From Escherichia coli (lineage in GTDB: Bacteria; Pseudomonadota; Gammaproteobacteria; Enterobacterales; Enterobacteriaceae), in assembly GCF_030013205.1 (NCBI RefSeq), contig NZ_CP122648.1: a DNA stretch of 64,000 bases; one strand, written 5' to 3'. Position 1 is the first letter of the stretch. Each line of letters starts with the position of its first letter. The position numbers are program-made. Of the stretch, positions 28,101-31,100 are shown one piece after another.

Positions 28101-31100
28101 AGCAGGTCAACTTTGTTGAGCAGCATCAGTGAGGCGGCGGCAAACATATGCGGATATTTCAGCGGTTTGTCTTCACCTTCGGTAACGGAAAGCACCGCCA
28201 CTTTGTGTTTTTCACCGAGATCGAAGCTGGCCGGGCACACGAGGTTGCCGACGTTTTCGATAAACAGAATACCGTTATCGTCCAGTGGCAGGCGCGGTGC
28301 GGCGTCGGCAATCATCTGTGCGTCAAGATGGCAGCCTTTACCGGTATTCACCTGAATCGCTGGTGTGCCGGTAGCGCGAATGCGTGCGGCATCGTTCACG
28401 GTTTGCTGATCGCCTTCAATAACCGCGCACGGAACGCTGTCTTTCAGGCGCATTAAGGTTTCCGTCAGCAGGGTGGTTTTACCGGAACCAGGGCTGGAAA
28501 CCAGGTTGAGCACCAGTTGCTTGCGGGCAGCAAAGCGCGCGCGGTTGCGTTCAGCCAGACGGTTATTTTTGTCCAGCACGTCAATTTCGACTTCCAGCAT
28601 CCGACGCTGGCTCATGCCCGGCGCGTGAGTACCCGCTTCGCCATGACCGTAATGCAGGTCGCCTTCTTCAGTCTGGCTGGGGGTAAATTCAGGCGCTTTA
28701 ATGCCGGTGATTTTCATCTTCGGGCGTGCCGCCGGGGCAAATGGCGCGCTACGAAACGCGGAATGAGGGTTATGTTCATCACCCTCGATATACAGGTTGC
28801 CTTCACCGCAACCGCATGTTGTACACATCGCTCACTCCTGGTCTATTTCTATCCGCCGAATCTGTAAACCGTCGTCTGCCACAATCTGTAGCATGTCACC
28901 ATGACACTGTGGACAGCGGCGGACGCGCTGGGTCAGTAGCGTCACATACTGTTGGCATGTTTCACACCAGCATTCGGCCTCTTGTTCTTCGAGGTGCAGT
29001 TTACAACCTTCCGCCACGCTGCCGCGGCAAACCAGATCAAAACAAAAGGCAAGAGAGCGGGTTTCGACACAAGAAAATGCGCCAATTTTGAGCCAGACCC
29101 CAGTTACGCGTTTTGCGCCGTGTTTTGCGGCCTGCTGTTCGATCAATTCCAGTGCCCGTTGGCAGAGGGTTATTTCGTGCATATCGCCTCCCATTAACTA
29201 TTGCCAGCTACAAGCAATAATTGTGCCAGTGTTGATTATCCCTGCAGTGAATAATGTCGATGATGTCGAAATGACACGTCGACACGGCGACGAAATTCAT
29301 CTTTAGCTTAAAAATCGCCTTAATAACAATGAATTAAAAGTTGGCACAGAAAATGCTTAAAGCTGGCGTCTCTGTTAAACGGGTAACCTGACAATGACTA
29401 TTTGGGAAATAAGCGAGAAAGCCGATTACATCGCACAGCGGCATCGTCGCCTACAGGACCAGTGGCACATCTACTGCAATTCGCTGGTTCAGGGGATCAC
29501 GTTATCGAAAGCGCGCCTGCATCACGCCATGAGCTGCGCGCCGGACAAAGAACTCTGTTTCGTCCTTTTTGAACATTTTCGTATTTACGTCACCCTGGCG
29601 GATGGCTTTAACAGCCACACCATCGAGTATTACGTCGAAACAAAAGATGGTGAAGACAAACAGCGGATTGCGCAGGCGCAACTGAGCATTGACGGCATGA
29701 TTGATGGCAAGGTCAACATCCGCGATCGCGAACAGGTTCTGGAACACTATCTCGAAAAAATCGCGGGCGTTTACGACAGCTTATACACCGCTATTGAAAA
29801 CAATGTGCCGGTGAATTTAAGCCAACTGGTAAAGGGACAAAGCCCGGCAGCATGAGCTGAGGCTTTGCCCGTTTTGCAGGCGTTACGCCTGTTTGGGGAT
29901 GGGCGTGTCGATGAGTGTCGAAAATGACATTTCATCGGCATGTTTTCGTCAAAAATGACAATCACCTGAGGAATGCCTGGTGAATCGTTTTGTAATTGCT
30001 GACTCCACGCTCTGTATCGGCTGCCACACCTGTGAGGCCGCCTGTTCAGAGACGCATCGCCAGCACGGCCTGCAATCAATGCCGCGCCTGCGAGTGATGC
30101 TCAATGAAAAAGAATCTGCGCCGCAGCTCTGTCACCACTGTGAAGATGCGCCCTGTGCGGTGGTTTGCCCGGTTAACGCCATCACCCGCGTTGATGGGGC
30201 CGTGCAGTTGAATGAAAGTCTGTGCGTAAGCTGCAAACTGTGCGGCATCGCCTGCCCGTTTGGCGCAATTGAATTTTCCGGCAGCCGTCCGCTGGATATT
30301 CCGGCAAACGCCAATACCCCGAAAGCGCCACCGGCACCGCCTGCTCCGGCGCGTGTCAGCACATTGCTTGACTGGGTGCCAGGTATTCGCGCGATTGCCG
30401 TCAAATGTGACCTTTGTAGTTTTGATGAACAAGGTCCGGCCTGCGTGCGGATGTGCCCGACTAAAGCCCTGCATCTGGTGGATAACACCGATATCGCCCG
30501 CGTTAGCAAACGTAAGCGTGAGCTGACCTTTAACACGGACTTTGGCGATCTCACCTTGTTTCAGCAGGCTCAAAGTGGAGAGGCTAAATGAGCGCAATTT
30601 CCCTGATCAATAGCGGCGTGGCGTGGTTTGTCGCCGCCGCTGTTCTGGCATTTCTCTTTTCTTTTCAAAAGGCGCTAAGCGGCTGGATAGCCGGAATTGG
30701 CGGCGCGGTGGGTAGTCTGTATACGGCAGCCGCGGGCTTCACTGTACTGACTGGCGCGGTTGGCGTGAGCGGTGCGCTGTCGCTGGTAAGCTACGATGTG
30801 CAAATCTCTCCGCTTAACGCGATTTGGCTGATTACGCTCGGCCTGTGCGGTCTGTTTGTCAGCCTCTACAACATTGACTGGCATCGCCACGCGCAGGTGA
30901 AATGCAACGGCTTGCAGATCAATATGTTGATGGCTGCCGCCGTCTGTGCCGTCATCGCCAGCAACCTCGGCATGTTCGTGGTAATGGCTGAAGTCATGGC
31001 CTTGTGTGCGGTGTTCCTTACCAGCAACAGCAAAGAGGGCAAACTGTGGTTTGCGCTGGGGCGTCTTGGCACTCTGCTGCTGGCGATTGCTTGCTGGCTG

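What the first reader, a model, noticed from the sequence alone, without database searches (positions are those of the whole stretch)
29183..29393. Back-to-back sigma54 promoters for hyp and hyc in the divergent region
TGGCACAATTATTGC (minus strand, 29214-29228) and TGGCACAGAAAATGC (plus strand, 29342-29356) both fit GG-N10-GC. This matches the FhlA-activated divergent promoter architecture of the formate hydrogenlyase regulon and supports the operon calls.
Basis: partly seen in the sequence, partly recalled or inferred. Interest (0 to 1): 0.2.

Follow-up and report, generated by a model that had tools for sequence, protein, structure and literature searches.

The report
Known E. coli hyp/hyc sigma54 promoters
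The two motifs are real and are the long-known, back-to-back sigma54 promoters that switch on the E. coli hydrogen-producing (formate hydrogenlyase) genes in response to formate, so the finding is correct but ordinary.

Summary
The window is E. coli chromosome: 100% identical over 1.2 kb to strain ETEC4079, and within the hyp-hyc region compared it differs from K-12 by a few SNPs.

Positions 29183-29393 are exactly the hypA(-)/hycA(+) divergent intergenic region. Both motifs sit at the stated coordinates.

GG-N10-GC alone is chance: 706 matches against 719 expected. With a 186-promoter sigma54 matrix, however, the two sites rank first and second of about 128,000 positions in the window:
- hyp: 19.1 bits, P = 9e-8 per site.
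- hyc: 15.6 bits, P = 2.5e-6 per site.

Both point at their genes, and the predicted starts lie 20 and 26 nt before the ATGs.

Both are kept in all 80 other Enterobacteriaceae loci examined. The cores TGGCA...TGC are nearly invariant while the spacers vary.

Published sigma54 ChIP-seq in K-12 and ChIP-chip in Salmonella report binding at exactly these motifs, and EcoCyc lists both as experimentally confirmed (original work: Lutz et al. 1990).

One nuance concerns the activator sites. A conserved cluster of FhlA-type sites (29255-29292) and an IHF-like site (29324-29336) lie between the promoters. A second, even better conserved FhlA-type cluster lies in the hycA-hycB spacer (29906-29960).

Verdict: observation confirmed, interpretation supported, already known, low interest.

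The parts
29213..29229 (-). hypA sigma54 promoter (-24/-12 element). 17-mer CTGGCACAATTATTGCT, with GG at 29227-29226 and GC at 29215-29214. Predicted start about 29202, 20 nt before the hypA ATG.
   Evidence: Sequence. Matrix rank 1 at 19.07 bits, P = 8.8e-8 per site. Identical to K-12 ChIP-seq motif OS28, fold-above-threshold 201. Present in 81/81 loci at 15.5-19.5 bits.
29341..29357 (+). hycA sigma54 promoter (-24/-12 element). 17-mer TTGGCACAGAAAATGCT, with GG at 29343-29344 and GC at 29355-29356. Predicted start about 29368, 26 nt before the hycA ATG.
   Evidence: Sequence. Matrix rank 2 at 15.59 bits, P = 2.5e-6 per site. K-12 ChIP-seq motif OS27 differs by one spacer base, at 29349. Present in 81/81 loci at 14.0-17.1 bits.
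29255..29292 (.). Upstream activating sequence 1: a cluster of FhlA-type sites between the two promoters. It comprises TGTCGATGATGTCG (29255-29268), TGTCGAAATGACA (29264-29276) and CGTCGACACGGCGACG (29277-29292).
   Evidence: The FhlA matrix hit at 29255-29268 ranks 2 in the window at 16.1 bits. The block ATGTCGA..GATGxCGA-AATGACAyGTC is conserved across 81 spacers. The best FhlA score in this spacer has a median of 11.0 bits, against 6.3-7.6 in coding controls.
29324..29336 (+). IHF-like site TAACAATGAATTA, one mismatch to WATCAANNNNTTR. It lies in the A+T-rich stretch between UAS1 and the hyc -24 element.
   Evidence: The best match starts 18-19 bp upstream of the hyc TGG in 62/81 loci. 27/81 loci have a perfect match and 58/81 have at most 1 mismatch, against 0.8% and 16% in composition-matched shuffles. 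That IHF binds here is from my recollection of Hopper et al. 1994, which I could not read. PMC2636881 states only that IHF up-regulates FHL synthesis.
29906..29960 (.). Upstream activating sequence 2: a cluster of FhlA-type sites in the hycA-hycB spacer. It comprises TGTCG (29906-29910), TGTCGAAAATGACA (29916-29929) and CGTCAAAAATGACA (29947-29960).
   Evidence: FhlA matrix rank 1 in the window at 17.5 bits, plus ranks 6 and 9. GTGTCGA..GTGTCGAAAATGACA...TTTCGTCAAAAATGAC is conserved in 75/75 loci. Identical to K-12.
28832..29182 (-). hypA, first gene of hypABCDE-fhlA.
   Evidence: ORF and translation. RefSeq annotation of the identical strain.
29394..29855 (+). hycA, first gene of hycABCDEFGHI. 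It encodes the antagonist of FhlA.
   Evidence: ORF. Annotation.
23413..25491 (-). fhlA, which encodes the sigma54 enhancer-binding activator. It is the last gene of the hyp transcription unit.
   Evidence: Annotation of L001 14714-16792, mapped by the offset +8699.

Best explanation
These are the two classical, divergently transcribing sigma54 (RpoN, formerly NtrA) promoters of the E. coli formate regulon: hypAp, reading leftward into hypABCDE-fhlA, and hycAp, reading rightward into hycABCDEFGHI.

Mechanism:
1. RNA polymerase-sigma54 sits on each -24/-12 element as a closed complex that cannot start on its own.
2. FhlA, encoded at the end of the hyp unit in this same window, binds formate and binds the TGTCG/TGACA-type repeats of the upstream activating sequences. 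One cluster lies between the promoters and one between hycA and hycB.
3. FhlA is brought to the polymerase by DNA looping. At hyc this is helped by an IHF-induced bend just upstream of the -24 element.
4. FhlA uses ATP hydrolysis to open the promoter.

The divergent layout makes a feed-forward and feedback pair. hypAp raises fhlA and the maturation genes. hycAp makes hydrogenase 3 and HycA, which counteracts FhlA.

Shown here: the motifs, their rank and statistics, their orientation and spacing, identity with the K-12 elements, deep conservation, and conserved FhlA-type and IHF-like blocks.

Taken from the literature: sigma54 occupancy, sigma54 and FhlA dependence, and formate induction.

Inferred or recalled only: which activator cluster serves which promoter.
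For: - Identity of the locus: 100% match to E. coli, annotated hypA/hycA.
- Matrix ranks 1 and 2 in 64 kb, with P = 8.8e-8 and 2.5e-6 per site.
- The known window controls are also recovered: the norV promoter at rank 4 and the hydN promoter at rank 11 (compared with OS25/OS26).
- K-12 sigma54 ChIP-seq peaks OS27 and OS28 are centred on these motifs. Both are flagged as confirmed in EcoCyc, and their predicted starts lie 26 and 20 nt from the genes, as in the window.
- Genomic SELEX with RpoN holoenzyme gives a peak in the hycA/hypA spacer (PMC8743547).
- Salmonella ChIP-chip shows binding at both sites, and both operons are sigma54-dependent, at 26-fold and 5.6-fold.
- hyp promoter, UAS1 and UAS2 are identical to K-12, and the hyc promoter differs only in one spacer base.
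- In 80 other species the core is kept while the spacer drifts, and the distance to the ATG is fixed at 28-34 nt (42 in one locus) and 34-37 nt.
- Footprint blocks appear exactly at the two promoters, UAS1 and the IHF-like site, and at UAS2.
- There is no excess of sigma70-like promoters (1 against 1.4 expected) and no RNA family hit.
Against: Nothing found contradicts it. The limits are:
- No transcription start site data were available to me for this strain or for K-12. The primary paper (Lutz et al. 1990, pmid 2181234) is cited but is not held.
- The hyc element is a weaker match, with ATGC instead of TTGC at -12, and scores about the same as a non-conserved intragenic site 120 bp away.
- The FhlA matrix was built from 13 characterised sites that probably include these very E. 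coli sites, so its top ranks in this window are partly circular. The cross-species conservation is the independent evidence.
- The 16-mer FhlA consensus quoted in PMC4987338 (CATTTCGTACGAAATG) does not match this region within 3 mismatches.
Confidence: 0.96

Rival explanations
1. The two motifs are chance matches with no role, and the operons are driven by ordinary sigma70 promoters in the spacer.
For: GG-N10-GC and the loose TGGCAC-N5-TTGC pattern occur at chance frequency in the window. A sigma70, FNR-dependent promoter is known (my knowledge) inside hypA for hypBCDE-fhlA, and an FNR ChIP-seq peak lies next to this spacer (PMC3688515).
Against: The full-length matrix scores are the two best in 64 kb, and the joint chance in this spacer is about 1e-8. 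Conservation is 81/81 with drifting spacers. Sigma54 occupancy is published in two species. Myers et al. found no sigma70 peak at hyc. There is no excess of sigma70-like sites.
Confidence: 0.01
2. Sigma54 holoenzyme binds here but only one of the two sites is a productive promoter. The other would be a silent or purely architectural binding site, for example a roadblock or a partner that stabilises the loop.
For: Many sigma54 ChIP-seq sites in E. coli have no known transcript (PMC4591121). The hyc element is a weaker match. hypBCDE-fhlA has an additional internal promoter, so the hyp site could in principle be dispensable.
Against: Both operons are up-regulated in a sigma54-dependent way in Salmonella carrying a constitutive activator: hyc 26-fold and hyp 5.6-fold. 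Bonocora et al. saw a transcript increase downstream of the hypA site. Both are listed as experimentally confirmed in EcoCyc. Both keep a fixed distance to their start codons and Shine-Dalgarno sequences in 81 loci.
Confidence: 0.02
3. The strong intragenic match at 29463-29478 (TGGCACATCTACTGCA, 15.06 bits, same direction as hycA) is a third, internal sigma54 promoter that contributes to hycB-I expression.
For: It ranks 3 in the window, nearly equal to the hyc promoter. ChIP-seq could not resolve it from OS27, which is about 120 bp away.
Against: The motif is spelled by the codons Trp-His-Ile-Tyr-Cys. In other species the synonymous Cys codon TGT and His->Arg/Gln changes destroy it, so that only 42/81 loci reach 12 bits, against 81/81 at 14 bits or more for the real promoters. 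This pattern is that of a by-product of coding sequence.
Confidence: 0.05

Closest known systems
E. coli K-12 hypAp and hycAp, the divergent NtrA (sigma54)-dependent promoters of the hydrogenase 3 cluster (Lutz, Boehm, Beier & Boeck 1990, Mol Microbiol 4:13; ChIP-seq sites OS28 and OS27 of Bonocora et al. 2015)
   Same: It is the same locus and essentially the same sequence. The hyp element and both FhlA-type clusters are identical to K-12. The orientation is the same, the predicted 5' leaders are the same (20 and 26 nt), and 113 bp separate the two TGG motifs.
   Different: Only strain-level SNPs: six in the 211-bp spacer. One is in the non-conserved spacer of the hyc element (29349, G for A) and one is at the predicted hyc +1 (29368, G for A). 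No functional difference is expected.
Salmonella Typhimurium hycA/hypA sigma54 promoters (Samuels et al. 2013, PMC3844500)
   Same: The arrangement is homologous and divergent. Holoenzyme binds at TGGCATGGAAAATGCTTA (hyc) and TGGCATAAATATTGCTTT (hyp), and both operons are sigma54-dependent.
   Different: T replaces C at the sixth position of the -24 element, and the spacer bases differ. The core is unchanged.
Other FhlA-activated sigma54 promoters of the formate regulon (fdhF, hydN-hypF, hyf)
   Same: They share the activator, the type of -24/-12 element and TGTCG/TGACA-type upstream sites. The hydN promoter lies in this window at 42485-42500 and is identical to ChIP-seq motif OS26.
   Different: Those are single promoters, not a back-to-back pair. 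hydN has a much weaker -12 (GTGAA, 11.05 bits).
norR-norVW divergent region (NorR/sigma54/IHF), also in this window
   Same: It has a sigma54 promoter, upstream enhancer sites and an IHF site between enhancer and promoter, all within a divergent spacer (PMC2831303; window site 48153-48168).
   Different: Only one of the two divergent genes (norV) is sigma54-dependent. The activator is different, and so is the enhancer motif, GT-N7-AC.

Membership tests
sigma54 (RpoN) -24/-12 promoter | GG and GC dinucleotides separated by exactly 10 bases, within the extended consensus TGGCAC-N5-TTGCW. | tested here: met
   hyp is TGGCACAATTATTGCT, an exact match at 19.07 of a possible 21.04 bits. hyc is TGGCACAGAAAATGCT, with one departure (A for T before GC), at 15.59 bits. 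They rank 1 and 2 in the window.
sigma54 (RpoN) -24/-12 promoter | Correct orientation and a plausible distance upstream of a gene. | tested here: met
   Each element points at its gene. The predicted starts are 20 nt (hypA) and 26 nt (hycA) before the ATG, and the distance is conserved in 81 loci.
sigma54 (RpoN) -24/-12 promoter | Evolutionary constraint on the core positions but not on the spacer. | tested here: met
   TGGCA and TGC are nearly invariant in 81/81 loci, down to 63% HycA identity. There are 18 (hyp) and 23 (hyc) different spacer variants.
sigma54 (RpoN) -24/-12 promoter | Occupancy by sigma54 holoenzyme. | not testable with these tools
   Published evidence exists. K-12 ChIP-seq peaks OS27 and OS28 have fold-above-threshold 91 and 201, the latter among the highest values in the parts of the table read. 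Genomic SELEX gives a peak at the spacer. Salmonella ChIP-chip shows binding. The window sequence is identical to K-12 at hyp and differs by one spacer base at hyc.
sigma54 (RpoN) -24/-12 promoter | A mapped transcription start about 12 nt downstream of the GC, dependent on rpoN. | not testable with these tools
   Both are flagged 'experimentally confirmed in EcoCyc' in PMC4591121. The primary mapping paper (pmid 2181234) is cited but is not held, so I could not check the coordinates.
sigma54 (RpoN) -24/-12 promoter | A cognate enhancer-binding activator and its binding sites in cis. | tested here: met
   fhlA is in the window (23413-25491). FhlA-type site clusters at 29255-29292 and 29906-29960 give the top matrix hits in the window and are conserved across species. 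Caveat: the matrix is probably partly derived from these same E. coli sites.
FhlA/formate regulon divergent hyp-hyc control region | Divergent hypA and hycA with the hyc structural genes and hypBCDE-fhlA on either side. | tested here: met
   Annotation. The same arrangement occurs in all 80 related loci.
FhlA/formate regulon divergent hyp-hyc control region | An IHF bend site between the activator sites and the hyc promoter. | tested here: inconclusive
   A consensus-like site starts 18-19 bp upstream of the hyc TGG and is enriched relative to shuffles. The E. coli copy has one mismatch, the region is A+T-rich, and binding itself could not be tested or read in the primary literature.
FhlA/formate regulon divergent hyp-hyc control region | Assignment of each activator cluster to one promoter, and induction by formate. 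| not testable with these tools
   My recollection of Lutz 1990, Schlensog 1994 and Leonhartsberger 2000 is that the cluster between the promoters serves hyc and the hycA-hycB cluster serves hyp. No paper held in the library states this.

The most novel reading that the evidence does not exclude
The distance between the two promoters changes among Enterobacteriaceae only in steps of about one helical turn: 113-115 bp in 58 loci, 101-102 in 19, 91 in 3 and 111 in 1, arising in several lineages.

This would fit a model in which the central FhlA cluster is a single, phase-locked, bidirectional enhancer serving both promoters. The classical picture, as I recall it, gives each promoter its own dedicated cluster.

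In that model the deeply conserved hycA-hycB cluster would have a different or additional job, for example a downstream enhancer or an anchor for an FhlA oligomer that bridges the two clusters.
Probability: 0.12. Interest if true: 0.3.

Novelty: already known. Interest (0 to 1): 0.07.

Why it matters
It confirms the operon calls in this window and shows that the formate-hydrogenlyase control region of this porcine ETEC-like strain is intact and essentially the same as in K-12. Nothing new about sigma54 or FhlA biology follows from it. The small added value is comparative: both promoters, the central FhlA cluster, the IHF-like site and the hycA-hycB FhlA cluster are conserved across about 80 enterobacterial species. 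The inter-promoter distance varies in roughly 11-bp steps.

Tried and rejected
- GG-N10-GC and TGGCAC-N5-TTGC with at most 1 mismatch, as tests of significance: both occur at chance frequency, so I replaced them with a matrix scan.
- The 16-mer FhlA consensus CATTTCGTACGAAATG quoted in PMC4987338: no match in the region within 3 mismatches. I used the 14-column matrix from PMC7658346 instead.
- Primary papers: Skibinski 2002, Barrios 1999 and Hopper & Boeck 1995 are not held, and Lutz 1990 is only cited. The start-site coordinates and the UAS-to-promoter assignment therefore could not be verified.
- Searches for 'hycA-hycB', 'hyc-hyp' and similar terms gave nothing relevant. The search for 'hycAp/hypAp' matched 'hypaphorine' and was wasted.
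- Measuring UAS-to-promoter distances with a regular-expression anchor: the apparent 10-11 bp quantisation is confounded, because the UAS consists of repeats about 9-11 bp apart and the anchor can slip between them. Only the total inter-promoter distance is robust.
- Intragenic sigma54-like site in hycA: rejected as a conserved promoter.
- Sigma70 promoter and terminator scan and the Rfam scan of 28800-30100: nothing above chance. The one 'terminator-like' hit (29292-29277) is the inverted repeat CGTCG...CGACG inside UAS1.
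Full report
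**What is there.** The window is E. coli chromosome. A 1.2-kb stretch around the finding is 100% identical to strain ETEC4079 and matches 5,425 of 5,426 complete E. coli genomes. The annotation of the identical record places hypA on the minus strand and hycA on the plus strand. hypBCDE-fhlA lies to the left and hycB-I to the right. The hypA ATG is at 29182 and the hycA ATG at 29394. Both quoted strings are present at the quoted coordinates.

GG-N10-GC occurs 706 times in the window against 719 +/- 27 in shuffles. TGGCAC-N5-TTGC with one mismatch occurs 8 times against 7.3.

I therefore took the count matrix of 186 characterised sigma54 promoters (Barrios et al. 1999), printed in Table 2 of PMC7658346, and scanned both strands of the window:
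- The hyp element scores 19.07 bits, against a maximum possible of 21.04, and ranks first.
- The hyc element scores 15.59 bits and ranks second.
- Two known sigma54 promoters elsewhere in the window serve as positive controls. norV is at rank 4 (48153-48168, minus) and hydN at rank 11 (42485-42500, plus).

Exact score distributions give P = 8.8e-8 and 2.5e-6 per site. That is 0.011 and 0.32 expected in the whole window, and 1.7e-5 and 5e-4 expected on the correct strand of this single spacer.

**Anatomy.** The hyp element (29229->29213, minus) points at hypA and the hyc element (29341-29357, plus) points at hycA. 113 bp lie between the two TGG motifs. Bonocora et al. place the start 19 bp downstream of the motif centre. 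By that rule the starts fall at about 29202 and about 29368, giving leaders of 20 and 26 nt. These are the same values as in their table for K-12.

**Experimental record for the same sequence.** I aligned the window with K-12 MG1655:
- The hyp element and both FhlA-type clusters are identical.
- The hyc element differs by one base in its non-conserved spacer (29349).
- There are six SNPs in the spacer in all.

Several published data sets cover this sequence:
- Sigma54 ChIP-seq in K-12 reports peaks OS27 (hycA, TTGGCACAAAAAATGCT, fold-above-threshold 91) and OS28 (hypA, CTGGCACAATTATTGCT, fold-above-threshold 201). Both are marked as experimentally confirmed promoters in EcoCyc (PMC4591121).
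- Genomic SELEX with RpoN holoenzyme also gives a peak in this spacer (PMC8743547).
- In Salmonella, ChIP-chip finds the holoenzyme at the homologous motifs. With a constitutive activator, hyc and hyp rise 26-fold and 5.6-fold in a sigma54-dependent way (PMC3844500).
- The original description is Lutz et al. [quoted passage not shown]' (pmid 2181234). It is cited, but I could not read it.

**Comparative test.** Using HycA as an anchor I fetched 80 loci from one-genome-per-species contigs. They cover Escherichia, Salmonella, Citrobacter, Enterobacter, Klebsiella, Kluyvera, Raoultella, Kosakonia and others, with HycA identity of 63-100%. All have the divergent hypA/hycA arrangement, with spacers of 188-223 bp.

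In every one of the 81 spacers the best correctly oriented sigma54 hit is 15.5-19.5 bits for hyp and 14.0-17.1 bits for hyc. TGGCA and TGC are nearly invariant, while there are 18 and 23 different spacer variants. The element ends 28-34 nt (42 in one locus) and 34-37 nt before the respective ATG.

A MAFFT alignment of the spacers shows conserved blocks at these places:
- the hypA ribosome-binding site;
- the hyp -12/-24 element;
- a block ATGTCGA..GATGxCGA-AATGACAyGTC (window 29255-29292);
- an A+T-rich block with an IHF-like site;
- the hyc -24/-12 element;
- the hycA leader.

**Activator sites.** The 14-column FhlA matrix of PMC7658346 puts its best hit of the whole window at 29916-29929 (TGTCGAAAATGACA, 17.5 bits). 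Its second best is at 29255-29268 (TGTCGATGATGTCG, 16.1 bits), and further hits lie at 29947-29960.

There are thus two clusters: one between the promoters and one in the hycA-hycB spacer. Both are conserved. The median best score is 11.0 and 10.5 bits in the two spacers, against 6.3-7.6 in coding controls of comparable length. The hycA-hycB cluster GTGTCGA..GTGTCGAAAATGACA...TTTCGTCAAAAATGAC aligns in 75 of 75 loci.

The matrix was built from characterised sites that probably include these, so the ranks in E. coli are partly circular. The conservation is the independent evidence.

My recollection of the Boeck laboratory papers is that the central cluster activates hyc and the hycA-hycB cluster activates hyp. 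No held paper states this, so it remains recollection.

**IHF.** In 62 of 81 loci a WATCAANNNNTTR-like site starts 18-19 bp upstream of the hyc TGG. It is perfect in 27 of 81 loci and has at most one mismatch in 58 of 81, against 0.8% and 16% in composition-matched shuffles. In the window it is TAACAATGAATTA (29324-29336), with one mismatch. This fits the usual sigma54 architecture of enhancer, IHF bend and promoter. That architecture is described for the neighbouring norV promoter in PMC2831303. It also fits a general statement that IHF up-regulates FHL synthesis (PMC2636881).

**Rivals.**
- Sigma70 promoters: a sigma70-type scan finds 1 site against 1.4 expected.
- Structured RNA: Rfam finds nothing meaningful in 28800-30100.
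- A third promoter: the third-ranked sigma54 match lies inside hycA (29463-29478, 15.06 bits) and is spelled by the codons Trp-His-Ile-Tyr-Cys. Synonymous and conservative changes break it in about half of the species. I read it as a coding by-product.

**Spacing.** The distance between the two TGG motifs is 113-115 bp in 58 loci, 101-102 in 19, 91 in 3 and 111 in 1. The short forms occur in Citrobacter, Kosakonia, one Enterobacter and Pseudescherichia. The changes are thus steps of about 11-12 bp, close to one helical turn, as expected if helical phase matters. The number of independent events is small. My attempt to split the distance at the UAS is confounded by the repeats within the UAS. 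I record this as an observation only.

**Verdict.** This is the textbook hyp/hyc divergent sigma54 control region of E. coli. It is already known and of low interest.

Noticed in passing
window 29906-29960 (hycA-hycB spacer): A second cluster of FhlA-type sites: TGTCG, TGTCGAAAATGACA and CGTCAAAAATGACA. It includes the best FhlA-matrix hit of the whole window, is conserved in 75/75 enterobacterial loci, and lies about 700-750 bp from the hyp promoter and about 540-590 bp downstream of the hyc start.
   Followed up: yes
window 29463-29478 (+), inside hycA: The third-best sigma54 matrix hit in the window (TGGCACATCTACTGCA, 15.06 bits), in the same direction as hycA. It is spelled by the codons WHIYC and is not conserved at synonymous positions, so it is probably a coding by-product.
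   Followed up: yes
window 31799-31814 (+), inside hycC: TGGCGCGTTTGTTGCC (10.9 bits) corresponds to the weak intragenic sigma54 ChIP-seq site IS31 of Bonocora et al. 2015 (fold-above-threshold 1).
   Followed up: partly
window 48153-48168 (-), norV promoter: The norV sigma54 element reads TGGCGCGCAATCTGCA here, against TGGCACGCAATCTGCA in K-12 (OS25). This is an A->G change inside the conserved -24 hexamer, and the element scores 13.2 bits.
   Followed up: no
window 42485-42500 (+), hydN promoter: TGGCATGATTTGTGAA is identical to K-12 ChIP-seq motif OS26, with a weak -12 (GTGAA, 11.05 bits, rank 11). FhlA-matrix hits at 41771-41793 lie inside ascG, about 700 bp upstream. I did not examine them further.
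   Followed up: no
window 29369-29393 (hycA leader): The 5' leader TCTCTGTTAAACGGGTAACCTGACA is much better conserved across 81 species than the neighbouring spacer DNA, although it has no strong Shine-Dalgarno match. The reason is unknown.
   Followed up: no
window 29229-29341 and loci L002-L081: The inter-promoter distance takes the values 113-115, 101-102 and 91 bp across species, that is, steps of about 11-12 bp in several lineages. This suggests that helical phase is conserved.
   Followed up: partly
window 29246, 29317, 29319, 29331, 29349, 29368: The six differences from K-12 MG1655 in the 211-bp spacer. 29349 is in the hyc -24/-12 spacer, 29368 is the predicted hyc +1 (G for A), and 29331 is inside the IHF-like site (in an N position).
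   Followed up: yes
window about 29163 (inside hypA, 5' end): The FNR ChIP-seq peak summit of Myers et al. 2013 (2,848,688 in U00096.2) maps about 19 bp into hypA. They assigned it to hyc. From my own knowledge, there is an FNR-dependent sigma70 promoter for hypBCDE-fhlA inside hypA.
   Followed up: no
window 23413-25491 (L001 14714-16792): In the RefSeq record of the identical strain the fhlA gene is labelled 'flhA' and its product 'formate hydrogenlyase transcriptional activator FlhA'. This is a naming slip that confuses it with the flagellar gene.
   Followed up: no
window 18470-19603 and 37423-38150: Differences from what I recall of the K-12 gene order are visible in the annotation. An IS1 is inserted in the serine/threonine phosphatase gene next to mutS. 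A higB/higA-type toxin-antitoxin pair lies between hycI and ascB.
   Followed up: no
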